Shown here: positions 1 through 9,996 of the stretch, one piece after another
How positions within the stretch are numbered: the stretch's first letter is position 1
How the letters are laid out: each line of letters starts with the position of its first letter
IMG/VR virus record: IMGVR_UViG_3300028956_000026
Location: 1-11,868 of that record
Direction: 5' to 3' (one strand)
DNA: 11,868 nucleotides
Source: a virus
Taxonomy: Duplodnaviria; Heunggongvirae; Uroviricota; Caudoviricetes
Notes under the pieces: generated by a model
The model's input: only the letters and a program-made list of their open reading frames with translations
Told to the model about the DNA's origin: nothing
Databases searched by the model: none
Made by a program: the position numbers and the translations under genes

Positions 1-204
1 GTAATGGGCGATGGTCGTAAGTATGACTGGGTTGTTTCTCTGCGTGCTGTCGAAACCATCGACTTTATGACCGCACACTGGGCGCATCTGCCGTACGATT
101 TCCTCGGTCGCGTTTCCAACCGCATTATCAATGAAGTGAACGGTATTTCCCGCGTGGTGTATGACATCAGCGGCAAGCCACCAGCTACCATTGAGTGGGA
201 ATGA
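1..204 (+). CDS. guaA: 3' end of GMP synthase (glutamine-hydrolysing); 5' end lies outside the window
   Basis: The frame is open from base 1 and ends ...[21 protein letters not shown], stop TGA at 202-204. This matches my recollection of the conserved GuaA C-terminus; not checked by search. Confidence 0.75.
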
Positions 205-249
205 TTAACAGCTAACTCATAGCAAGTCATTCCTATTCAGATACTAACT

Positions 250-396: not shown

Positions 397-1647
397 GTGC
401 TTACCGATACAAAATTAAAAAACCTCAAGCCGCAGGACAAACTGTACAAGGTCTCCGATCGTGACGGGCTGTATGTAGCTGTGCTTACGTCAGGCACGGT
501 CTCGTTTCGCTACGACTACCGTATCAACGGTCGCCGCGAAACGCTGGTAATCGGGCAGTATGGGCGTGACGGTATCAGCCTGGCAGAAGCGCGAGAAGAA
601 CTGATTGCTGCAAAGAAGCTGCTTAAAGCAGGCCAGTCACCGGCTGCGGCTAAACGTGACGGTATCAAAAAGATTCGTGGTGCCGAGACGTTTGCGGTAC
701 ATACCGACAGTTATATGAAACACGTCATCCTGGCTGACAGTACCCGCGCAATGAAACAGGCGGTGATCGACCGTGACATACTTCCGGTTCTTGGCAATAA
801 AATGATGGCTGAAATTACCACATCGATGGTTCGTGATTTGTGTGACCGGATTGTCGAACGCGGTGGCCGGGCAACAGCAGTGCAGGCCAGGGAGATCATC
901 AGTAGCGTATACCGTCACGCCAATGACCGTGGTCATGGTTTGTTTAATCCTGCGGCTGACATTAAACCTTCGTCTATCGCCATATTTAAACCACGAGAGC
1001 GAACACTGACACCAGAAGAAATTGGCCTGTTCTTCCGCACGCTGGATGCCATTGGTGCTATGGGCACTATGAAAATGGCTTTAAAACTGGTGCTTATCAC
1101 TATGGTTCGTAAGGGCGAATTCACCAATGCAACGTGGGATGAAATAGATTTTAAAAAATGGACATGGACAATTCCTTCAGACCGCATGAAAGGAAGCCGG
1201 GCGCACGTTATTTACCTGCCTAAACAGGCACAGGATATATTGGTCGGGTTGCAGATGTGCGCTGGTGGAAGTGAATACCTGGTTCCTGGTCGTTACAATT
1301 TCCGGAAGCCATTATCTAATGCCGCACTGAACTCTCTGATCGACAGAACGGTGAAAATAATAAATGAAGATGGTGAGCATATTCAGGACTTCACCGTACA
1401 CGATATGCGCCGTACAGCCAGTACGTTGTTGCATGAGGCTGGTTATCCTTCAGACTGGATTGAAAAGGCTCTGGCACATGAGCAGAAAGGTGTGCGCGCC
1501 GTATATAACAAAGCGGAATACGCCAGACAGCGCGCCTACATGTTGCAGCAGTGGGCCGATATGATTGATTCTTGGATTGACGGGGAGCATACGGATCTGA
1601 TTCCGTTCTCCCCGTCGAAGTTTGAGAAGTGGATGGCGGGGGAATAA
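397..1647 (+). CDS. int: Site-specific tyrosine integrase, P4/CP4-57 type
   Basis: 416 aa, GTG start. N-terminus LTDTKLKNLKPQDKLYKVSDRDGLYVAV is typical of the P4-integrase N-terminal domain. C-terminal catalytic signature VHDMRRTASTLL ... LAHEQKGVRAVYNKAEY (HxxR and catalytic Tyr). Confidence 0.9.
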   Translation: MLTDTKLKNLKPQDKLYKVSDRDGLYVAVLTSGTVSFRYDYRINGRRETLVIGQYGRDGISLAEAREELIAAKKLLKAGQSPAAAKRDGIKKIRGAETFAVHTDSYMKHVILADSTRAMKQAVIDRDILPVLGNKMMAEITTSMVRDLCDRIVERGGRATAVQAREIISSVYRHANDRGHGLFNPAADIKPSSIAIFKPRERTLTPEEIGLFFRTLDAIGAMGTMKMALKLVLITMVRKGEFTNATWDEIDFKKWTWTIPSDRMKGSRAHVIYLPKQAQDILVGLQMCAGGSEYLVPGRYNFRKPLSNAALNSLIDRTVKIINEDGEHIQDFTVHDMRRTASTLLHEAGYPSDWIEKALAHEQKGVRAVYNKAEYARQRAYMLQQWADMIDSWIDGEHTDLIPFSPSKFEKWMAGE

Positions 1648-1650
1648 CGT

Positions 1651-1845
1651 TTAATTATTCTGCTGATTTTCTTCCATCTCGGCTTCTGCTGCCAGTGATT
1701 CAATTTTGTCTGCGAATATTGCTGACAGCGTTGCAAATTCAGCATCGGTGACAGCGGGAATTGGAACAAACCTGATCCCGCTGTGTGCAAGCATGTTTGC
1801 AGTTTCAAGGCATTTCCTTAAATCTGCTGGTGATGCCCGGTTCAT
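1651..1845 (-). CDS. Small hypothetical protein (64 aa) with an acidic C-terminus
   Basis: Its ATG (1845-1843) overlaps the TGA stop (1844-1842) of the upstream methyltransferase as ATGA. GGGAG Shine-Dalgarno about 9 nt upstream. Sequence MNRASPADLRK...AEAEMEENQQNN. The 104-aa track ORF 1651..1965 is the same frame extended into the methyltransferase gene. Confidence 0.45.
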   Translation of the reverse strand: MNRASPADLRKCLETANMLAHSGIRFVPIPAVTDAEFATLSAIFADKIESLAAEAEMEENQQNN

Positions 1846-2492
1846 GCTGCACGCTCCCGCCCCTGGTTGTCTGTTGGTGACAGCGGAGCATTGCTGAATG
1901 CATTTGTTAATCTGGCAATATCCAACGCGTATCCAGGGTGTAGTTGCACTGCCGGGTCTTCGCACTGATTACCCCAAACATCGAAGCCATGAGACGACTG
2001 GCGGGCGAACAGTTCAATGCGAGAAACATCGCCTAACAATTGCACAAGTTTTTCACGAACGACATCTGGTTTTCTTGAATGCTCAAGCCGCGGTGCGGTA
2101 AATGACTGAACGATCCCTGCATTAATGCGCGGAGGTAGTTTTCCCTTTACTGCAAACAGGCAATCTTCACTATTGGCGCGAGTCATGTGACCCATACCCA
2201 TAACCAGTTTATCTGGTTGTCGACTACCACATTTTATCCACGTGAATCCCTTCATGGTCATCAGACGGAATCCCCAGGCTTCAACAACTTTTAGTGCTTC
2301 GAGTGGTTGTGTTGGCACCCACCACATGGCCAACAGACAGTTTTCATCGGCCAAATCCCACACAGGAAGGCGGCAGATATCCATCACACTCATAACCGGA
2401 TATTTAAAACCGGCACCGCGATTACCATCTGCGGCTTTGTCCCGGTATACCCAGGGTGGATCTGCATAGATTAGTGTGTATTTCTTAGTCAT
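1842..2492 (-). CDS. MT-A70 family DNA N6-adenine methyltransferase
   Basis: 216 aa with the catalytic motif LIYADPPW near the N-terminus and downstream hydrophobic/WGF blocks typical of MT-A70. ATG at 2492. Confidence 0.8.
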   Translation of the reverse strand: MTKKYTLIYADPPWVYRDKAADGNRGAGFKYPVMSVMDICRLPVWDLADENCLLAMWWVPTQPLEALKVVEAWGFRLMTMKGFTWIKCGSRQPDKLVMGMGHMTRANSEDCLFAVKGKLPPRINAGIVQSFTAPRLEHSRKPDVVREKLVQLLGDVSRIELFARQSSHGFDVWGNQCEDPAVQLHPGYALDIARLTNAFSNAPLSPTDNQGRERAA

Positions 2493-2784
2493 AAACCACC
2501 CCGCAACATCCTATACCGCTATAGTCGCCACGGCGAAGGCCGTTACCTTTTGTGATACATTGGTCCCTGCGAACCGCGATCCTTGCACGCTCAACATCAC
2601 CAGAAGCAACATCCATACACTGAAGCCAAAGGTGGGCGGCAATGCGGAACTGCCCTTTTTTCTCTCTTTCAATCGCGCGTTTTTCGATCTCTATCGCCGC
2701 AGGAGTAACGGCAACAACCTTTGAAGGGCTGCGCATTGAAACCTTGTTCATGTGATATTTTTCAAGTCGGCTTAACTTTCTCAC
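2485..2784 (-). CDS. Hypothetical regulator, possibly PerC-family transcriptional activator
   Basis: GTG start at 2784 with GAGGG Shine-Dalgarno upstream; alternative ATG at 2751. Segment EKRAIEREKKGQFRIAAHLWLQCMDV...ERARIAVRRDQCI resembles the PerC/Pch pattern (GLWRRAA.RW...RRN.C) from memory. Overlaps the methyltransferase start by 8 nt. Confidence 0.45.
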   Translation of the reverse strand: MRKLSRLEKYHMNKVSMRSPSKVVAVTPAAIEIEKRAIEREKKGQFRIAAHLWLQCMDVASGDVERARIAVRRDQCITKGNGLRRGDYSGIGCCGVVYD

Positions 2785-2893
2785 TTAATCCAACCCTCTC
2801 TGAAAATTAATGCCAGCAGATAAAGCCATGCAGAAACAGAGGCCAGGAATAAGTACCATCCTGACCATTTGCTCCAGTGCCTTAGCAGCACAC

Positions 2894-3142
2894 TCATGCC
2901 GCGTTGCTCACGGGACGATATACACGTTGCTGAACAGGAGGTTTTTTACCCTGGAACTCTGCCGGGCTTGCTGCCTGACGTTCATCAAGCCAACGCTCAA
3001 CTTCATCACGGTTCCATGCGCAGCGTTTATCGGTGATATACCAGCGTTTAGGAAATTCCCCTGCGCGCTCCATACGGTCGATAGTGCTCCATGACAGTGG
3101 CACCACCGCCAGGAGTTCCTTCTTACCTAATGCACCTTTCAT
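2894..3142 (-). CDS. AlpA-family prophage regulator / excisionase-like HTH protein
   Basis: 82 aa. KELLAVVPLSWSTIDRMERAGEFPKRWYITDKRCAWNRDEVERWLDER fits the AlpA/Xis-type winged-HTH pattern (S-STI-R, FP, W...EV..W). GAGG Shine-Dalgarno 5-6 nt upstream of the ATG. Confidence 0.7.
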   Translation of the reverse strand: MKGALGKKELLAVVPLSWSTIDRMERAGEFPKRWYITDKRCAWNRDEVERWLDERQAASPAEFQGKKPPVQQRVYRPVSNAA

Positions 3143-3191
3143 AAATACCTCTCTTGGTTGCAGTGCGGCGCGCGTGGCGCCGCGGTGGTGG

Positions 3192-4133
3192 TTACATAGA
3201 TGTTTCGTTTAATTCTTCCCGACGAACGCTGTAAACGTCGGTGGCTTTTGCCAGCAGTTCGTCATCATCTGAAAGTTTTTGTGCAATGTATTTGTAAGCC
3301 TTATCCAGTTCGGAGACAGTGCTGTAATTCATCGCTGCGCTGGTAAAGGCCATCAGCATTTCTTCTGGATCACGGCTATCCGCTTTACGCGTTTGCTCAT
3401 CAGGCTTTTTCGCTGGTTTAGCGTTGATCAGACTGTTCATTCCCGCAGCAGTGGTCGTTTGCGGAGTAATGTCTCGCTCAACGCGCGGTGCCGTTTCCTG
3501 TAATTCGTCTGGGGTGTAGACGCCCATGATTACGTCAGGACAGTGCAGGCGAGACCAGCGTTTTGTCGCAAGGTATGCGAGTTGTTGTTTCGGATCACTG
3601 GCCCAAAGTGTGGAGTTTCTTACCTGTGCTTGAGACAGCATTAACTCAAGCACTCGAGGTTGATCCTCGCCCTTCATGGTTGCCCATACGCGAACACCGC
3701 AGCCTTCTTCGTCTTTTAGAGTCCAGCCTGGTGCGATATATGGATTGCCGTTTTTGGATGTTTTCTCAACAAACTTACCGATCACGCGTTCCCACGGCCC
3801 GAACCACTCGTAGTTGATGCGATCTTTTGTTGGCGACATCGTTGAGATAACTGCGTTTACTAATTGGGCTTCATAACCTAGCGTGCCGTTCACAACATGG
3901 GTTTTCTGAGCCACGGCAAACGGGTTCATTCCCCACTGCGCAGCCTGCATTGCCACGGCCATGCAATCAGCTGGTTTCCCGGCGAGGTGCGCCGGTACCG
4001 TTACGCGGCTTTGCGCCATTACCTCGGCGAATTTCATCAGTTGGTTCAAGCCGTCTGGGCTGAAAATAGTTGCAGCAGTTCCAGCGATTGCTGTGTCTAC
4101 TGGTGCGTTGATGTTTGCGATGTCGTTGCTCAT
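3192..4133 (-). CDS. ssDNA annealing recombinase, Bet (Red-beta)/RecT family
   Basis: Blocks AQWGMNPFAVAQKTHVV and QLAYLATKRWSRL...ERDITP parallel lambda Bet (ANQYGLNPW..., ...ERDITP). Start placed at ATG 4133, which overlaps the exonuclease stop as ATGA and has an AGGA Shine-Dalgarno; the track start at 4160 is GTG without a Shine-Dalgarno. Confidence 0.8.
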   Translation of the reverse strand: MSNDIANINAPVDTAIAGTAATIFSPDGLNQLMKFAEVMAQSRVTVPAHLAGKPADCMAVAMQAAQWGMNPFAVAQKTHVVNGTLGYEAQLVNAVISTMSPTKDRINYEWFGPWERVIGKFVEKTSKNGNPYIAPGWTLKDEEGCGVRVWATMKGEDQPRVLELMLSQAQVRNSTLWASDPKQQLAYLATKRWSRLHCPDVIMGVYTPDELQETAPRVERDITPQTTTAAGMNSLINAKPAKKPDEQTRKADSRDPEEMLMAFTSAAMNYSTVSELDKAYKYIAQKLSDDDELLAKATDVYSVRREELNETSM

Positions 4134-4951
4134 ATGTACATATCCTGTTTGCGTGCCCACTCAGGGCGTTTAATGATTTCCACACCGCCCCATTCATCAT
4201 TGATGCGGCATTCGTGATAGGTATTCAGATCCCGGCGGAACAGAGCGTGCCCGGCATCGACATCCTGCGCATCCAGCTCGAACACGCGTACCGGATACCG
4301 ACCACAATCAATGCTTTCGCTCACGGCAAGAAAGAAAAAACCATGCGGCTGACCAGTAACCCTCATTGCGCCTTCGCGGTACATTGCGTCCTGCACGTGG
4401 TAGCGGAATTCCTCGATGTGGCGTGCAAAACGGTCCATATCTGCAACCTTTTTCACGTCGACGATCACGTTGTGCTCGTTCAGCCATTTGTCTGGACGAA
4501 TTCGGCACAACTCCCCCGTCTCTTCATCGTTCCAGTACATTGATGCTTCGCAGTAACCAGGGGCTTCCAGCATCCAGCGTGCCGCCGGGTGAGCCATTGC
4601 GCTATCACGCATCAGCTCCAGTTTCCGCCACTGCTCGGCATCAAGTACCGTAATCCCCATATCCGCCACATCACGAAGAAATGCCTCTTCGTCAGCTTTA
4701 CCTTGTTTCGTCCGACGATCGAATTTCGGTGAAACAATGAAGCGTTTGTCGAACTCTCCAGGCTCCAGAAGCAGACAGTGCAATGCGGTTCCCATATCCA
4801 GTGCAGACTTTTTCTCTTCGTCTTCTGGTGCTGCCTGAACCCATTTAAGAAGCGCCGGATTCTTGGCAACCATGTCCAGTTGCGACTTACTCACGCCGTC
4901 ACCGGCGTGGTAGTCCTCATTGCTGATGTCGAAATAAATTCCCGGTTTCAT
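4130..4951 (-). CDS. RecE-like 5'-3' exonuclease (exodeoxyribonuclease VIII-like, PD-(D/E)XK)
   Basis: 273 aa. N-terminus MKPGIYFDISNEDYHAGDGVSKSQL resembles the RecE C-terminal nuclease domain family. Sits immediately upstream of the annealing protein (exo then annealase order, as in RecET modules). Confidence 0.7.
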   Translation of the reverse strand: MKPGIYFDISNEDYHAGDGVSKSQLDMVAKNPALLKWVQAAPEDEEKKSALDMGTALHCLLLEPGEFDKRFIVSPKFDRRTKQGKADEEAFLRDVADMGITVLDAEQWRKLELMRDSAMAHPAARWMLEAPGYCEASMYWNDEETGELCRIRPDKWLNEHNVIVDVKKVADMDRFARHIEEFRYHVQDAMYREGAMRVTGQPHGFFFLAVSESIDCGRYPVRVFELDAQDVDAGHALFRRDLNTYHECRINDEWGGVEIIKRPEWARKQDMYI

Positions 4952-5254: not shown

Positions 5255-6289
5255 TCAATATTTGATATACGCGTCCTGCACTTTGCCGCCAGCGATAGCC
5301 AACATTGCTTTCTGCGCGAATTCTTCGTGAATGCCTTGGGCTATCAGATCTGCGATTACTCTGCGGTTAACGGTACGGCGATGCTCTTTATCTGCAGCTC
5401 GGCGCGCTTCTTCGTCGGCGATACGCTTCTGTTCGTCAAGGCGGGCTTTTTCTGCCGCCTCTTGGCGTCGGCGTTCCTCGGCAACGGCTTCTTCTTTTTC
5501 GCGTCGTGCACGCTGCTCTGCTTCAATTCGCTGACGTTCTGCTACTTCAGCACGTGCTTTTTCTTCCGCCGCCAGGCGTGCCGCAGCCTCAATTTCAGCT
5601 TTCGCTTTTTGTTCAGCTTCGAGCCTGGCCTGTTCAGCAGCTTCCCGTCGGATATTCTCTTCTCGCTCAATGCGCGCTTTTTCCTCCGCTTCTTTGCGAA
5701 GTCGCTCCAGCTCAGCGGCTTCATGCTCGCGTTTTTGAGCTACTGCGAGTGATTCTTCCAGTTTCTGGATGGTTGAATCCTTGGCTACTCCAGCTTCTGC
5801 TGCGTACTCCTGCCAACTTTCATCAAGTGCTACTGATTTAGCCTCTTGAATTCGTTCCTGAATATCAGATGATGGCAAGTAGTTTCCGGAGAGATCGATC
5901 ACGTCAGCTAGTGCTCGCAAATTTGTCAGGCGTTGTTGCAGTGCTTCAGTGCGTAATTTCTCAGCATTTTCCCACTCGGTGAGTGGGCGGCGTACTTCAT
6001 CACGAAGCCGATCGCATTCGGTTACGAAGCGTCGTAACTCTGCTTCAACTACTTTCGGCTGTTCTTTCAGGCGTTTCAGATAATCACGTCCTGGTTTTTC
6101 TACCGCTGTTTTACTTCTTGAAACCTTCGCAGCCAGAGATGCAATGCGCTTTCTGCCTTTGTCTGTGCTAATGTCAGGCACTTCATTAACACCTTCACGG
6201 ATCTGCTCGAGAAACTTTTCCAGCCCTTTTTCAACGTAAATTCTTGGTGCCATGTCTGGTGTGATTTCGATGATTGATAATTCACTCAT
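5255..6289 (-). CDS. Phage coiled-coil protein with a TolA-like low-complexity E/A/K/R-rich central region
   Basis: 344 aa. Globular N-terminal part (MSELSIIEITPDMAPRIYVEKGLEKFLEQIREG...) followed by about 120 aa of EAEQKAKAEIEAAARLAAEEKARAEV-type repeats. Several antisense shadow ORFs on + are artefacts of this repeat. Confidence 0.7.
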   Translation of the reverse strand: MSELSIIEITPDMAPRIYVEKGLEKFLEQIREGVNEVPDISTDKGRKRIASLAAKVSRSKTAVEKPGRDYLKRLKEQPKVVEAELRRFVTECDRLRDEVRRPLTEWENAEKLRTEALQQRLTNLRALADVIDLSGNYLPSSDIQERIQEAKSVALDESWQEYAAEAGVAKDSTIQKLEESLAVAQKREHEAAELERLRKEAEEKARIEREENIRREAAEQARLEAEQKAKAEIEAAARLAAEEKARAEVAERQRIEAEQRARREKEEAVAEERRRQEAAEKARLDEQKRIADEEARRAADKEHRRTVNRRVIADLIAQGIHEEFAQKAMLAIAGGKVQDAYIKY

Positions 6290-6465: not shown

Positions 6466-6482
6466 GTTACCGTTGAGGTAAT
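6466..6482. promoter_or_regulatory. Operator-like dyad GTTACCgttgaGGTAAT (oL-proximal)
   Basis: 17-bp dyad overlapping the -10/start region of the predicted leftward promoter. An extra TTACC half-site lies at 6454-6458. Confidence 0.45.
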
Positions 6483-6509
6483 AATTATGCTTATTTGGTT
6501 TGGTGTCAA
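6481..6509 (-). promoter_or_regulatory. pL-like sigma-70 promoter (leftward early operon)
   Basis: On the minus strand a perfect -35 TTGACA (plus 6504-6509), 17-bp spacer, -10 AATTAT. Lies between the repressor terminator and the first leftward ORF and is flanked by two operator dyads. Confidence 0.45.
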
Positions 6510-6527
6510 TAGATATGAGTTAAAAAA

Positions 6528-6544
6528 ATTACCCGTAAGGTAAT
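6528..6544. promoter_or_regulatory. Operator-like perfect dyad ATTACCcgtaaGGTAAT (oL-distal)
   Basis: Perfect 6+5+6 palindrome about 19 bp upstream of the -35 of the pL-like promoter. Confidence 0.45.
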
Positions 6545-6552
6545 CTATCTGG

Positions 6553-6580
6553 CAATAAAAAAGCCGCCATGAGGCGGCTT
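6553..6580 (-). terminator. Rho-independent terminator after the repressor gene (tImm-like)
   Basis: 8-bp stem AAGCCGCC (6561-6568) / GGCGGCTT (6573-6580), loop ATGA. On the minus strand it is followed by TTTTATT. Lies 20 bp downstream of the repressor stop. Confidence 0.6.
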
Positions 6581-6600: not shown

Positions 6601-7185
6601 TTATTGTTTGCTTTTTTCGTTCTGGTTGATGACAAATTCAATGTAACTTTCGATCTTTGCTTTCTCTGTTTCAGGTAACAATGCGTAGCGCGAGCGGTCA
6701 TAGTTGATAGTTGCAGGGTCGTGCGGGTGAATCAGTAGTTCATATCCGTGACGCCCGAATGCAGATGCAACATTCTCCAGGGTGGAAATGGAAACGCTGA
6801 CCTCATTGTTTAACAGGCGGCTGATTGTCACCTGGGCTACGCCGGATGCGCGGTGAAGTTTTCCCTGTGTTGAAAGGTCGCGGCTTTCGCTCATCCAGCG
6901 TTCCAGGTTGTGAGCCGCCAGCTGGCCAATGTCGCTTGGGCCGACAGGCTGAAAACCTTCCTGAGAAAGCGAGCGATCGATATCAAGCCAGTTACGGGGT
7001 TTATTGGCGGCAGCTTCAATTTTTCGCGCAACCTGATCGCCGATAACCTTCTTACCAAGAGCCCAGCGGTTTACCAGATTTGCCTGAGTTCCAAGTTTTT
7101 CGGCCATCCGCGTCTGAACACCATTGAATTCACGGTCGATCAAGTCGTTGAGATTTTGCCTGCGGACGTCCTGGATACTTTTCAT
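6601..7185 (-). CDS. CI-like prophage repressor with two HTH domains and no LexA-type S24 peptidase domain
   Basis: 194 aa. N-terminal HTH (QTRMAEKLGTQANLVNRWALGKK) and a second HTH-like segment (GVAQVTISRLLNNEVSVSISTLENVASAFG). No Ser/Lys autocleavage motif. Divergent from the Cro-like gene, no Shine-Dalgarno before the ATG (pRM-style). Operators flank it. Confidence 0.7.
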   Translation of the reverse strand: MKSIQDVRRQNLNDLIDREFNGVQTRMAEKLGTQANLVNRWALGKKVIGDQVARKIEAAANKPRNWLDIDRSLSQEGFQPVGPSDIGQLAAHNLERWMSESRDLSTQGKLHRASGVAQVTISRLLNNEVSVSISTLENVASAFGRHGYELLIHPHDPATINYDRSRYALLPETEKAKIESYIEFVINQNEKSKQ

Positions 7186-7936: not shown

Positions 7937-8752
7937 ATGAGCAGACATGCAACAGATTGGGCCTGGGAGACAGATCCAGGTAGCTCGTCATTAAAGCTCA
8001 TACTGCTCTCGATGGCTGACAGAGCCGATGAATATAACCTCTGCTACCCCAGCATAGAACGCCTCGTTAAAGACACTTGCCTGAATAAAAAAACCGTGCA
8101 GGCCGGGCTTATATCGCTCATGAAAATGGGGCTTATTTCAGATACCGGAGAGAGAAAGGGAGCGACGAAAAGAGTGCGGGTTTTCTCTCTTAATATAACC
8201 AAAAACGGGAACATTAAAGGCAACCGGGAAGGGGGTAATGAACCCGAAAACGGTAATGTTACCGAAAACGGGAATATACACAAAAACGGGATGTTGAATG
8301 ATCCCAAAAACGGGATGTTGAATGATCCCAAAAACGGGATCCAGAACCAGTCATATAACCAGTCATTTAACCAAGAGAGGGAGAGCAGGACAAAAAGCGG
8401 GGATTCTGTGCCTCATGACCCCGGCGCAAACAACGCCGTGATGAATAACTTTGTTCCTCCTGGTGGGCCAGGGCAATTAGGCAAATTTGTCATGCATGAA
8501 CAATGGCAACCATCAGATGACTTTCTTCGGAAAAGCTCATTGCAGGGGATCTACCTGGACAGTCTGCCAACGGCACAGGAACTTGCAGAGTTCAGAATTT
8601 ACTGGATGGCTGAGGGTAAGGCATACCATCAGGCGCAGTGGGAGCAGAAGCTGGCAAGGCGGCTGCAGATTAGCAGACAGAAGCAATCAACATTACCTGA
8701 TAACAACGTTCCGCACTGGAACAGCCCTGAAGCATGGGAGGATTTCTTGTGA
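7937..8752 (+). CDS. Replication initiator, O-like (winged-helix N-terminus, repeat-encoded linker, DnaT-like C-terminus)
   Basis: 271 aa with GGAGA Shine-Dalgarno. Central N/G-rich linker is encoded by DNA iterons. Positioned immediately before the P-like gene, with the stop overlapping its start. Confidence 0.7.
   Translation: MSRHATDWAWETDPGSSSLKLILLSMADRADEYNLCYPSIERLVKDTCLNKKTVQAGLISLMKMGLISDTGERKGATKRVRVFSLNITKNGNIKGNREGGNEPENGNVTENGNIHKNGMLNDPKNGMLNDPKNGIQNQSYNQSFNQERESRTKSGDSVPHDPGANNAVMNNFVPPGGPGQLGKFVMHEQWQPSDDFLRKSSLQGIYLDSLPTAQELAEFRIYWMAEGKAYHQAQWEQKLARRLQISRQKQSTLPDNNVPHWNSPEAWEDFL
8198..8342. repeat. Origin-type iterons inside the O-like gene
   Basis: Six to seven copies of CC(C/G)AAAAACGG(G/T)A; the last three form a 24-bp tandem unit CCCAAAAACGGGATGTTGAATGAT (8279-8342). 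Followed by an AT-rich ACCAGTCAT(A/T)TAACCA duplication (8355-8375). Confidence 0.7.
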
Positions 8753-9570: not shown

Positions 9571-9587
9571 ATTACCTGTTGGGTAAT
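9571..9587. promoter_or_regulatory. Operator-like perfect dyad ATTACCtgttgGGTAAT
   Basis: Perfect palindromic arms, 65 bp upstream of the DUF1064-like gene. Confidence 0.45.
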
Positions 9588-9633
9588 AAAATATTCTAAA
9601 CTCTATTGATTTCGTGTCTTATGTGGTTTTTAA

Positions 9634-9650
9634 TTACCTTAGAGGTAAAT
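9634..9650. promoter_or_regulatory. Operator-like dyad ATTACCttagaGGTAAA overlapping the RBS of the DUF1064-like gene
   Basis: Ends 1 bp before the ATG at 9652; the GGTAA half doubles as the GAGGT Shine-Dalgarno. Confidence 0.4.
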
Positions 9651-9651
9651 C

Positions 9652-9996
9652 ATGAGAAAACAGATACAGGCTCTTGGTCGACTCAAAACAGGCCAGATGA
9701 ACAAAACAGAATCTGCGTATTGCCAGCACCTTGAGCTGCGTAAACGTGCAGGGGAAATCGCCTGGTATCGATTCGAGGGTATCAAGCTGCGGTTAGCTGA
9801 CAACACGTTCTATACGCCCGATTTTGCTGTGATGCTCGCCACCGGCGAGATGGAACTACACGAAGTGAAAGGTTTCTGGACCGATGACGCCAGAGTGAAA
9901 ACCAAAGTCGCCGCAGATCAGTATCCGTTCCGAATCATCGGGGTAACGGTTAAGCCAAAGAAAGCAGGTGGTGGCTGGAACATCGAAGAGTTCTGA
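9652..9996 (+). CDS. DUF1064-like phage protein (nuclease-fold family)
   Basis: 114 aa. Pattern KTESAYCQHLELRKRAGEI...YTPDFAV...EVKGFWTDDARVK matches my recollection of DUF1064. Good Shine-Dalgarno. Confidence 0.6.
   Translation: MRKQIQALGRLKTGQMNKTESAYCQHLELRKRAGEIAWYRFEGIKLRLADNTFYTPDFAVMLATGEMELHEVKGFWTDDARVKTKVAADQYPFRIIGVTVKPKKAGGGWNIEEF

What the first reader, a model, noticed from the sequence alone, without database searches (positions are those of the whole stretch)
1651..3142. Accessory cargo block between the recombination module and int: AlpA-like, PerC-like, MT-A70 methyltransferase and a small acidic protein
Four genes lie at the distal end of the leftward operon in the position where lambdoid phages carry variable cargo. 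The methyltransferase and the 64-aa acidic protein are ATGA-coupled, suggesting a functional pair (for example methyltransferase plus modulator, or an anti-restriction pairing). A PerC-like activator next to an orphan adenine methyltransferase could link prophage state to host gene regulation or epigenetic protection. Functions are inferred from motifs only.
Basis: partly seen in the sequence, partly recalled or inferred. Interest (0 to 1): 0.55.

Follow-up and report, generated by a model that had tools for sequence, protein, structure and literature searches.

The report
Early-left operon tail of phiV10-like prophage
The four genes are real and correctly named, but they belong to a well-known, already annotated phage (phiV10/epsilon15 type, inserted next to guaA in about a tenth of E. 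coli genomes), and the proposed methyltransferase-plus-small-acidic-protein partnership is not supported by comparison with related phages.

Summary
Window 1651-3142 is the far end of the leftward early operon of a phiV10/epsilon15-like (Uetakevirus) prophage inserted at the 3' end of guaA. All four domain calls pass Pfam's cut-offs: DUF1382, MT-A70, PerC and Phage_AlpA.

The block is 98-100% identical to annotated sequence in phiV10, ZX5 and E. coli PCN033. At least 80% of it is present in 537 of 5426 complete E. coli genomes.

- **AlpA, 38-aa, PerC and MTase genes:** these are conserved in order across the phage lineage, so they are not variable cargo. AlpA is the only candidate excisionase or integrase regulator.
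- **The slot after the MTase:** only this slot varies. It holds DUF1382 in 53 of 80 near-identical loci, and otherwise a phosphatase or an antirepressor cassette.
- **The 64-aa protein:** it is a homolog of lambda Orf63 (50% identity), which acts in lambda without any MT-A70 gene.
- **Overlaps:** every junction in the chain overlaps, so the ATGA is not specific to this pair. DUF1382 lies near the MTase in 0 of 43 other species.
- **Expression:** the operon sits behind an operator-flanked pL-like promoter. Expression is therefore expected after induction, not in the lysogen.

Verdict: ordinary and already known. A minor lead is that PerC-family genes recur directly upstream of MT-A70 genes in other prophages.

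The parts
190..206 (.). att core (attL), overlapping the last codons of guaA
   Evidence: Identity to the phiV10 attP region starts at window 190. The sequence attgagtgggaatgatt is the att core reported for phage ZX5 (PMC9782041).
397..1647 (+). P4/CP4-57-type tyrosine integrase, convergent with the early-left operon
   Evidence: Pfam Arm-DNA-bind_3, Phage_int_M and Phage_integrase; 29% identity to K-12 IntA, E=5e-48.
1651..1845 (-). 64-aa acidic DUF1382 protein, homolog of lambda Orf63; occupies the variable last slot of the operon
   Evidence: Pfam PF07131 E=1.3e-30; 50% identity to lambda Orf63, E=9e-21; matches PDB 8DSB, E=5.8e-13; replaced by other genes in 27 of 80 close relatives.
1842..2492 (-). 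216-aa orphan MT-A70-family (class beta, DPPW) N6-adenine methyltransferase
   Evidence: Pfam PF05063 E=3.8e-22; best PDB sequence matches are the ciliate DNA 6mA MTase MTA1 (E=2.5e-13) and METTL3; the AF2 model matches the METTL3/MTA1 catalytic domain, TM about 0.65; PADLOC MTase_II E=4.7e-77; no endonuclease gene nearby.
2485..2784 (-). 99-aa basic PerC-family protein (GTG start overlapping the stop of the 38-aa ORF)
   Evidence: Pfam PF06069, 30.1 bits against a 22.6 cut-off; phrog_868 E=6.5e-62; residues 1-11 are conserved in homologs, which supports the long start; the AF2 model has a three-helix core with no significant PDB match.
2781..2897 (-).
   Evidence: Translation; phrog_17484 E=4.7e-27; annotated in phiV10 and epsilon15; conserved WSGW...REGWI motif in relatives from several genera.
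2894..3142 (-). 82-aa AlpA-family HTH protein; probable excisionase (recombination directionality factor) and/or activator of int
   Evidence: Pfam PF05930, 24.2 bits against a 21 cut-off; phrog_66 'excisionase and transcriptional regulator' E=2e-16; PDB 8c3t 'AlpA family', E=1.8e-11; found in phage records only in epsilon15/phiV10-like phages apart from 3 weak hits.
3192..4133 (-). RecT recombinase (upstream neighbour; recombination module)
   Evidence: Pfam RecT E=2.2e-44; RefSeq annotation of the same gene in TW10722; translation.
4130..4951 (-). PD-(D/E)XK exonuclease (DUF3799)
   Evidence: Pfam PF12684 E=1.2e-22.
6481..6509 (-). pL-like sigma-70 promoter of the early-left operon (TTGACA, 17 nt, AATTAT)
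   Evidence: Consensus scan, 10 of 12 matches. It is the only promoter-like site on the minus strand between 1651 and 6600.
6466..6544 (.). two operator-like palindromes ATTACC-N5-GGTAA(T/C) at 6528-6544 and 6466-6482, bracketing the -35 and overlapping the -10
   Evidence: They match the repressor-binding sites annotated in epsilon15.
6561..6580 (-). intrinsic terminator between the repressor gene and the pL-like promoter
   Evidence: 8-bp GC-rich stem followed by a T run; a terminator is annotated at the same place in phiV10.
6601..7185 (-). prophage repressor (HTH_3)
   Evidence: Pfam HTH_3 E=1.2e-9; homolog of the phiV10 gp40 and epsilon15 repressor.

Best explanation
The block is the promoter-distal end of the repressor-controlled early-left operon of a phiV10/epsilon15-like temperate podovirus integrated at the 3' end of guaA in E. 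coli. It holds five translationally chained genes.

(1) An AlpA-family HTH protein, which most likely acts as the excisionase (recombination directionality factor) and/or activator for the adjacent P4-type integrase. (2) A conserved 38-aa membrane protein of unknown role. (3) A PerC-family small helical protein. (4) A minimal MT-A70-type orphan N6-adenine methyltransferase. (5) A lambda Orf63 homolog (DUF1382).

Genes 1-4 are a fixed feature of this phage lineage. Gene 5 sits in a swappable last slot.

Because the only recognisable promoter is a pL-like promoter flanked by repressor operators 3.3 kb upstream, the genes should be silent in the lysogen and switched on after induction or infection. 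At that point AlpA would promote excision, the MTase would methylate replicating phage DNA (inferred: protection against restriction in the next host), and the Orf63 homolog would bias development towards lysis, as it does in lambda.

Shown here: gene identities, synteny, overlaps, slot variability and promoter/operator layout. Inferred: timing of expression, DNA as the substrate, an anti-restriction role, and excisionase activity.
For: Identity: the block is 98-100% identical to phiV10, ZX5, EC.W1-9 and E. coli PCN033, and at least 80% of it is present in 537 of 5426 complete E. coli genomes. The att core at 190-206 matches the published ZX5 attP/attB at guaA (PMC9782041).

Domains: Pfam, PHROGs and PADLOC; PDB sequence matches; the MTase model has the METTL3/MTA1 fold; DPPW and 51 invariant columns in 30 homologs.

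Operon structure: four successive overlaps (ATGA, GTGA, 8 nt, ATGA). No promoter-like or terminator-like site lies on the minus strand between 1651 and 6480. A pL-like promoter lies at 6509-6481, flanked by epsilon15-type operators.

Lineage core against variable slot.

Orf63 homology and its lambda phenotype: (PMC10869804).

Prophage orphan MTases are transcriptionally silent in E. coli lysogens elsewhere (PMC4659465; PMC5778455). A ZX5 lysogen shows no change in growth, biofilm, adherence or virulence. An AlpA-like protein can substitute for a phage Xis (PMC11773190).
Against: No experiment addresses any of these five proteins in this phage family. The MTase's substrate (DNA or RNA) and its target motif are unknown. 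The promoter and operator calls are consensus matches only. Weak internal promoters, or read-through from the repressor gene past the terminator at 6580-6561, could give low expression in lysogens. Similarity of the AlpA-like protein to K-12 AlpA is weak (E=6e-5) and to the excisionase TorI it is absent, so a purely transcriptional role is possible. The Orf63 homolog has Glu at the position where lambda K54E abolished the pro-lytic effect (and the alignment), so it may not behave like lambda Orf63.
Confidence: 0.75

Rival explanations
1. One reading: the MT-A70 methyltransferase and the 64-aa acidic DUF1382 protein form a dedicated functional pair. The small protein would either modulate the enzyme or the two would act together against restriction.
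For: The two genes overlap by ATGA. An 82%-identical MTase is again followed directly by a DUF1382 gene (53% identical) in Stx-converting phages of a different lineage, for example TL-2011c, and those phages carry a second Orf63 paralog elsewhere. Eukaryotic MT-A70 enzymes need partner subunits (PMC7544214).
Against: All junctions in the five-gene chain overlap. In 27 of 80 loci whose MTase is 97-100% identical, the slot holds other genes that start at the same overlapping ATG. Epsilon15, Tyrion and Klebsiella phi13.3 carry unrelated small ORFs there. DUF1382 is found within 3 kb of the MTase in 0 of 43 species-representative genomes. Lambda Orf63 has its phenotype in a phage with no MT-A70 gene. 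Between this window and TL-2011c, DNA similarity breaks at the MTase 3' end and resumes only in the DUF1382 core.
Confidence: 0.06
2. Lysogenic conversion: the PerC-like protein and/or the MTase are expressed from the resident prophage and alter host transcription or the host methylome.
For: The PerC family includes activators of the LEE1 promoter, and a PerC-family protein from an E. coli satellite represses LEE1 (PMC11773190). ZX5 lysogens induce spontaneously (10^7 PFU/mL), so a subpopulation does express the operon.
Against: No promoter-like site lies inside or just upstream of the block, and the operon promoter is bracketed by repressor operators. The ZX5 lysogen shows no change in adherence, virulence, biofilm or growth. 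Other prophage orphan MTases in E. coli are silent in lysogens. The PerC-like gene is confined to this phage lineage and kept in strict synteny with alpA, as expected for a phage developmental gene.
Confidence: 0.1
3. The PerC-family protein and the MT-A70 enzyme are the real functional unit. The small helical protein would control expression of the minimal methyltransferase or serve as its partner subunit.
For: A PerC-family ORF lies within 1.3 kb upstream of the MTase on the same strand in 13 of 43 species-representative loci. In non-Uetakevirus prophages of Buttiauxella, Lonsdalea, Acerihabitans and Dryocola it abuts or overlaps the MTase start. Four of these pass Pfam's PerC cut-off. In the window the two genes overlap by 8 nt. 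The model of the PerC-like protein is a three-helix bundle with only weak MIT/TPR-like matches, which are protein-binding folds, and no HTH.
Against: 30 of 43 MTase loci have no PerC-family gene nearby. Within the Uetakevirus lineage other genes are often inserted between the two: epsilon15 gp30, DUF1317, and a 367-aa DndB protein. No credible natural fusion was found: the single PerC plus MT-A70 fusion cluster is 97% identical to the window and is most simply a frameshift in the overlap. The fold matches are not significant (best E=0.17). The number of independent lineages is small, about five.
Confidence: 0.12

Closest known systems
Escherichia phage phiV10 genes gp32-gp36 (NC_007804), and the same genes in phages ZX5, EC.W1-9 and O157 typing phages 9 and 10
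   Same: 97.9-98.7% nucleotide identity over the whole 1492-bp block. Same five genes in the same order, same convergent P4-type integrase and same guaA attachment site.
   Different: Only point differences. phiV10 annotates the PerC-like gene from an internal ATG (88 aa). Upstream, phiV10 has a RecE-RecT fusion annotation and lacks the 344-aa gene found at window 5255-6289.
Salmonella phage epsilon15 early-left operon (gp33, gp32, gp31, gp30, MTase, p09, int)
   Same: Same order: RecT, AlpA-like (85% aa identity), 38-aa membrane protein, PerC-like (79%), MT-A70 MTase (76%), convergent integrase. Operators ATTACC-N5-GGTAAT lie at the left promoter.
   Different: Epsilon15 has an extra 35-aa ORF before the MTase. 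After the MTase it has a 60-aa membrane protein (annotated 'transacetylase repressor') in place of DUF1382.
Lambda exo-xis region, in particular Orf63 (DUF1382; PDB 8DSB)
   Same: Same position between the recombination genes and int/xis, transcribed from a pL-type promoter. The 64-aa protein is 50% identical to lambda Orf63, a dimeric two-helix, one-strand protein that favours lytic development.
   Different: None of the other conserved exo-xis genes (orf60a, orf61, orf73, ea22) is present in the window. Lambda has no MT-A70, PerC or AlpA gene there. Position 54 is Glu here, and K54E inactivated lambda Orf63 in the survival assay.
MT-A70 family methyltransferases (METTL3, ciliate MTA1/AMT1)
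   Same: Full-length Pfam match, DPPW catalytic motif near the N-terminus, and the predicted fold of the METTL3/MTA1 catalytic domain.
   Different: Only 216 aa, with no extra RNA- or DNA-binding domains and no paralogous inactive partner gene nearby. Phage-borne and orphan. Substrate and target motif untested.
M.EcoGII / M.EcoGI (prophage non-specific adenine methyltransferases of E. coli O104:H4)
   Same: Prophage-borne orphan class beta adenine MTases of E. coli that are silent in the lysogen and thought to act at induction (PMC5778455).
   Different: M.EcoGII is 349 aa with a DPPY motif and a central target-recognition region, and the paper makes no mention of MT-A70. I did not compare its sequence with the window protein, but the length and motif show that the window MTase is a different enzyme.
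CP4-57 AlpA with IntA, and AlpA of Gram-negative phage-inducible chromosomal islands
   Same: A small AlpA-family HTH protein encoded next to a P4-type integrase. AlpA triggers excision by raising intA expression (established knowledge) and is the master activator of island excision. An AlpA-like protein can stand in for a phage Xis.
   Different: Only weak similarity to K-12 AlpA (E=6e-5). Here the gene is the fifth-from-last gene of a long phage operon that converges on int, rather than lying beside int.

Membership tests
MT-A70 (PF05063) class beta N6-adenine methyltransferases | Profile match above the curated cut-off over the whole domain | tested here: met
   79.5 bits against 23.9, profile positions 1-172 of 172.
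MT-A70 (PF05063) class beta N6-adenine methyltransferases | Catalytic motif IV, DPPW, near the N-terminus (class beta order) | tested here: met
   D11-P12-P13-W14 in the translation. W14 is invariant and D11/P12/P13 are at least 90% conserved in 30 homologs.
MT-A70 (PF05063) class beta N6-adenine methyltransferases | Fold of the METTL3/MTA1 catalytic domain | tested here: met
   AF2 model pTM 0.74. Foldseek top hits are METTL3 and Tetrahymena MTA1, E about 1e-13, TM 0.60-0.66. The model is of moderate confidence (mean pLDDT 71).
MT-A70 (PF05063) class beta N6-adenine methyltransferases | SAM-dependent N6-adenine methylation, with defined substrate and target motif | not testable with these tools
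   Needs expression in a methylation-deficient host followed by SMRT or nanopore sequencing.
Type II restriction-modification system | Cognate restriction endonuclease gene next to the methyltransferase | tested here: not met
   The neighbours are the PerC-like gene, DUF1382 and int. No nuclease ORF is present and no PADLOC hit other than MTase_II. The enzyme is therefore an orphan.
PerC family (PF06069) | Profile match above the curated cut-off | tested here: met
   30.1 bits against 22.6, but only profile positions 5-50 of 90. The related NCBIfam ANR_neg_reg model scores below its cut-off (23.6 against 32).
PerC family (PF06069) | Activation of the LEE1/ler promoter, the activity that gave the family its name | not testable with these tools
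   A PerC-family protein of an E. coli satellite repressed LEE1 instead (PMC11773190), so the family name does not fix the activity.
Phage_AlpA (PF05930) / excisionase-type HTH | Profile match above the curated cut-off | tested here: met
   24.2 bits against 21; phrog_66 E=2e-16; PDB 8c3t E=1.8e-11.
Phage_AlpA (PF05930) / excisionase-type HTH | Encoded together with a P4-type tyrosine integrase | tested here: met
   An integrase with Arm-DNA-bind_3 lies 1.25 kb away. The association is kept in all relatives examined.
Phage_AlpA (PF05930) / excisionase-type HTH | Promotes excision or activates int transcription | not testable with these tools
   No other Xis-like ORF was found in the window or in the phiV10 annotation. 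There is no detectable similarity to TorI.
DUF1382 / lambda Orf63 | Profile match and direct similarity to lambda Orf63 | tested here: met
   105.7 bits against 27; 50% identity, E=9e-21; PDB 8DSB E=5.8e-13.
DUF1382 / lambda Orf63 | Lys54, which is required for the pro-lytic effect of lambda Orf63 (an activity-linked residue, not a defining feature of the family) | tested here: not met
   The alignment puts Glu54 opposite lambda Lys54. The paper notes that Glu predominates in the family and that K54E was inactive.
Lambda-type exo-xis block | Conserved gene set orf60a, orf63, orf61, orf73, ea22 | tested here: not met
   Only the orf63 homolog is present. DUF1317 (orf60a-like) occurs at this place in some relatives.
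phiV10-like Uetakevirus prophage at guaA | Near-identity to phiV10-type genomes and the att core at the guaA 3' end | tested here: met
   PMC9782041.

The most novel reading that the evidence does not exclude
The PerC-family protein, not the 64-aa protein, is the functional companion of the minimal MT-A70 methyltransferase. The two would form a two-gene module that moves between Enterobacterales prophages. The small three-helix protein would either control the enzyme's expression or act as its non-catalytic partner, much as METTL14 or MTA9 and their accessory proteins supply substrate binding to eukaryotic MT-A70 enzymes.
Probability: 0.12. Interest if true: 0.55.

Novelty: already known. Interest (0 to 1): 0.2.

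Why it matters
As it stands, the finding re-describes genes that are already annotated in phiV10, epsilon15, ZX5 and hundreds of RefSeq E. coli genomes, so it adds no new kind of system.

Its practical value is modest. About one E. coli genome in ten carries this orphan MT-A70 methyltransferase, and its target and substrate have never been determined. Knowing them would help interpret E. coli methylomes and the ability of phiV10-type phages to cross restriction barriers; these phages are used for O157 detection and typing.

The comparison also gives a clean example of a single 'plug-in' slot at the end of a phage operon. Alternative genes are exchanged there at one overlapping ATG.

Finally, it raises a small testable lead: PerC-family genes recur directly upstream of MT-A70 genes.

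Tried and rejected
- **Is the MTase M.EcoGII/M.EcoGI?** Rejected. Those are 349 aa with a DPPY motif and a central target-recognition region, and the paper makes no mention of MT-A70.
- **Is it related to K-12 YfdM, the CPS-53 'putative methyltransferase'?** No alignment.
- **Similarity of the AlpA-like protein to the excisionase TorI:** none. Similarity to K-12 AlpA is only weak.
- **Literature on the specificity of this MTase or its Stx-phage homolog:** nothing found. Fang et al. 2012, which lists the O104:H4 MTases, is not held.
- **Natural PerC-MTase fusions as Rosetta-stone evidence:** only one 297-aa cluster, 97% identical to the window, most simply a frameshift in the 8-nt overlap.
- **Structural neighbours of the PerC-like protein:** no significant PDB match (best E=0.17, MIT/TPR-like).
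- **RNA features:** no tRNA and no Rfam family in the window. The GC-rich hairpin between recT and alpA (about 3165-3183) folds no better than shuffled sequence (z=-1.3).
- **Defence-system models (PADLOC):** only the generic MTase_II model hits.
- **Promoters inside the block:** none on the minus strand between 1651 and 6480.
- **DUF1382 after the MTase in epsilon15, Tyrion, Klebsiella phi13.3 and HK639:** absent by a family HMM.
Full report
**What is at the coordinates.** All pass Pfam's curated cut-offs:
- 1651-1845, 64 aa, DUF1382 (E=1.3e-30)
- 1842-2492, 216 aa, MT-A70 (E=3.8e-22, full-length match)
- 2485-2784, 99 aa, PerC (30.1 bits against 22.6, N-terminal half of the profile only)
- 2894-3142, 82 aa, Phage_AlpA (24.2 bits against 21)

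The 64-aa protein is acidic (pI 4.5). The apparent gap between the AlpA and PerC genes is in fact a fifth gene: a 38-aa single-pass membrane protein at 2781-2897. It matches phrog_17484, is annotated in phiV10 and epsilon15, and is strongly conserved (WSGW...REGWI) in relatives from several genera.

Reading the strand directly shows that all five genes are chained by overlaps:
- AlpA / 38-aa: ATGA
- 38-aa / PerC: GTGA
- PerC / MTase: 8 nt
- MTase / DUF1382: ATGA

**Where the window comes from.** Bases 1-204 encode the C-terminus of GuaA. Identity to the attP region of phage phiV10 begins at base 190. The sequence attgagtgggaatgatt at 190-206 is the att core reported for phage vB_EcoP_ZX5, which integrates at the 3' end of guaA (PMC9782041).

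The block is 97.9-98.7% identical to phiV10, ZX5, EC.W1-9 and the O157 typing phages, and 100% identical to E. coli PCN033. At least 80% of the block is present in 537 of 5426 complete E. coli genomes. RefSeq already names the genes 'DUF1382 family protein', 'MT-A70 family methyltransferase', 'PerC family transcriptional regulator' and 'helix-turn-helix transcriptional regulator'.

The phage is an epsilon15/phiV10-like podovirus (genus Uetakevirus), not a lambdoid phage in the strict sense, although its early region is laid out like lambda's.

The integrase (397-1647) is a P4/CP4-57-type enzyme on the opposite strand. Its stop codon lies 3 nt from the stop of the DUF1382 gene, with no terminator between them.

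**Operon context and expected timing of expression.**
- No promoter-like or terminator-like site was found on the minus strand between 1651 and about 6480.
- The only candidate promoter is TTGACA-17-AATTAT at 6509-6481. It lies just downstream of a strong terminator (6580-6561) that follows the repressor gene (6601-7185).
- This promoter is bracketed by two palindromes, ATTACCTTACGGGTAAT (6544-6528) and ATTACCTCAACGGTAAC (6482-6466). They match the repressor-binding sites annotated at the same place in epsilon15 (ATTACC-N5-GGTAAT).

The block is therefore the far end of a repressor-controlled early-left operon of about 4.8 kb. The gene order is a 49-aa ORF, a 344-aa ORF, a 101-aa ORF, the exonuclease, RecT, and then the five genes. 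I infer that the genes are silent in the lysogen and expressed after induction or infection.

Three published observations fit this:
- Lysogeny by ZX5 caused no change in growth, biofilm, stress response, adherence or virulence.
- Prophage-borne orphan methyltransferases were transcriptionally silent in E. coli EC958.
- M.EcoGI and M.EcoGII are not expressed in E. coli O104:H4 during normal growth.

**Core genes against cargo.**
- The AlpA-like and PerC-like proteins each hit almost the same 36-39 phage records, all epsilon15/phiV10-like phages of Escherichia, Salmonella, Klebsiella and Enterobacter. The only exceptions are three weak AlpA hits.
- The order RecT, AlpA, 38-aa, PerC, (0-2 small genes), MTase, (variable gene), convergent int is kept in epsilon15, Tyrion and Klebsiella phi13.3.
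- The same order is kept in seven species-representative genomes: Superficieibacter, Pseudescherichia, Kluyvera, Scandinavium, two Citrobacter and Klebsiella.

These four genes are thus a fixed part of the lineage, not variable cargo.

The AlpA-like protein is the only Xis-like or AlpA-like candidate in the window and in phiV10. It belongs to phrog_66, 'excisionase and transcriptional regulator', and resembles a solved AlpA-family protein (8c3t, E=1.8e-11). In CP4-57, AlpA triggers excision through intA (established knowledge). In an E. coli satellite, an AlpA-like protein can substitute for a phage Xis. I therefore read it as the excisionase and/or int activator, with the caveat that its similarity to K-12 AlpA is weak and to TorI absent.

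**The last slot and the proposed MTase / 64-aa pair.** The 64-aa protein is 50% identical to lambda Orf63 (E=9e-21; lambda annotation). It matches the NMR structure 8DSB. [quoted passage not shown] It bound no test DNA, and no partner is known (PMC10869804). Lambda has no MT-A70 gene.

Among 80 IMG/VR loci whose MTase is 97-100% identical to the window's, the ORF that starts at the ATG overlapping the MTase stop is one of the following:
- DUF1382 in 53 loci
- a 219-aa metallophosphatase in about 20 loci
- an 82-aa ORF followed by an AntA/B antirepressor in about 7 loci

Epsilon15, Tyrion and Klebsiella phi13.3 carry unrelated small ORFs there. In 43 loci from different species that encode a 56-91% identical MTase, no DUF1382 ORF lies within 3 kb.

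The one observation in favour of a pair is that Stx-converting phages such as TL-2011c also have an 82%-identical MTase followed directly by a DUF1382 gene. There, however, DNA similarity to the window breaks at the MTase 3' end and resumes only in the DUF1382 core. Taken together, the ATGA junction is a general feature of this operon and a recombination 'plug-in' point. It is not evidence of a dedicated partnership.

**The methyltransferase.**
- It has DPPW at residues 11-14, and 51 columns are invariant among 30 homologs.
- Its closest solved relatives by sequence are the ciliate DNA 6mA methyltransferase MTA1 (E=2.5e-13) and METTL3 (E about 3e-6).
- The AlphaFold model (pTM 0.74, mean pLDDT 71) superposes on the METTL3/MTA1 catalytic domain (TM about 0.65).
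- It is essentially a bare catalytic domain. The last 25-30 residues are variable and low-confidence.
- The family is large: 2248 clusters in Enterobacterales and beyond, and 517 phage records including Vibrio, Klebsiella and Stx phages.
- No endonuclease gene accompanies it, so it is an orphan.
- It is not M.EcoGII.
- I found no published target motif.

The anti-restriction role at induction is an inference by analogy with other prophage orphan MTases.

**The PerC-like protein.** It passes the Pfam cut-off only over the first half of the profile. It scores below cut-off for the related ANR family. Its close family is narrow: 138 clusters, all at least 56% identical. Residues 1-11 are conserved, which supports the GTG start at 2784 rather than the internal ATG used in phiV10. 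The model is a three-helix core (residues 28-80, pLDDT about 90) with only weak, non-significant MIT/TPR-like matches and no HTH. The family name does not fix the activity, since a PerC-family protein of an E. coli satellite repressed LEE1.

One point I had not expected concerns its neighbourhood. PerC-family ORFs lie within 1.3 kb upstream of the MTase in 13 of the 43 species-representative loci. In prophages outside the Uetakevirus type (Buttiauxella, Lonsdalea, Acerihabitans, Dryocola) they abut or overlap the MTase start. This is a lead for a PerC-MTase module. But 30 of 43 loci lack it, other genes are often inserted between the two, and only about five independent lineages are involved.

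**Verdict.** The region is an already annotated, very common part of a known phage family. The 'variable cargo' reading holds only for the last gene. The proposed methyltransferase / small-protein pair is contradicted by comparative data. A role in host regulation during lysogeny is unlikely given the operon's control region and the published lack of a lysogen phenotype.

Novelty: already known. Interest: low (0.2). The main open, testable items are the target of this widespread orphan MT-A70 enzyme and the possible PerC-MTase association.

Noticed in passing
window 2781-2897 (-): A 38-aa single-pass membrane protein gene sits between the AlpA-like and PerC-like genes and was not listed in the finding. 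It is conserved (WSGW...REGWI) in relatives from Escherichia, Salmonella, Enterobacter, Klebsiella, Citrobacter, Kluyvera, Scandinavium and Superficieibacter.
   Followed up: yes
window 1645-1653: The integrase (+) and the DUF1382 gene (-) converge with only 3 nt between their stop codons and no terminator. Transcripts from the early-left promoter would run antisense through int, which could affect int expression.
   Followed up: partly
window 9571-9587, 9633-9649 and 339-355: Further copies of the operator-like palindrome ATTACC-N5-GGTAAT lie just upstream of the DUF1064 gene (9652-9996). A weaker copy lies upstream of int. This suggests repressor control of more than the two divergent early promoters.
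   Followed up: no
window 8234-8373: A perfect 24-bp repeat (2.5 copies, 8281-8340) is flanked by 18-bp and 12-bp repeats inside the DnaT-like replication gene (7937-8752). The arrangement is iteron-like and is probably the phage replication origin. It encodes the Asn/Gly-rich repeats of the protein.
   Followed up: partly
L018:2898-4001 (also L033, L062, L100; E. coli GPEC403-625, hit H251): In some otherwise near-identical prophages a 367-aa DndB-family (DGQHR) protein is inserted between the PerC-like gene and the methyltransferase (Pfam DndB E=2.6e-46).
   Followed up: partly
L110, L113, L114, L118, L131, L109 (about 2500-3010 in each locus): PerC-family ORFs, some with an N-terminal winged-helix-like domain, lie directly upstream of and overlap MT-A70 methyltransferase genes in prophages of Buttiauxella, Lonsdalea, Acerihabitans and Dryocola. 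These prophages are not of the phiV10 type.
   Followed up: partly
window 5255-6289 (-): A 344-aa protein has a long Glu/Arg/Ala-rich, probably coiled-coil, segment (phrog_1376, no Pfam family). It is present here and in E. coli TW10722 but absent from the same place in phiV10.
   Followed up: no
L016:4648-5307 and L043:4648-5871: Alternative occupants of the slot after the methyltransferase were found. One is a 219-aa calcineurin-like Ser/Thr phosphatase. The other is an 82-aa ORF with no family followed by an AntA/B antirepressor. Both start at the same ATG that overlaps the methyltransferase stop codon.
   Followed up: yes
window 3165-3183 (-): A GC-rich 7-bp hairpin without a T run lies in the 49-nt gap between recT and the AlpA-like gene, at the place where epsilon15 is annotated with a 'pausing' stem-loop. 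It folds no better than shuffled sequence (z=-1.3).
   Followed up: yes
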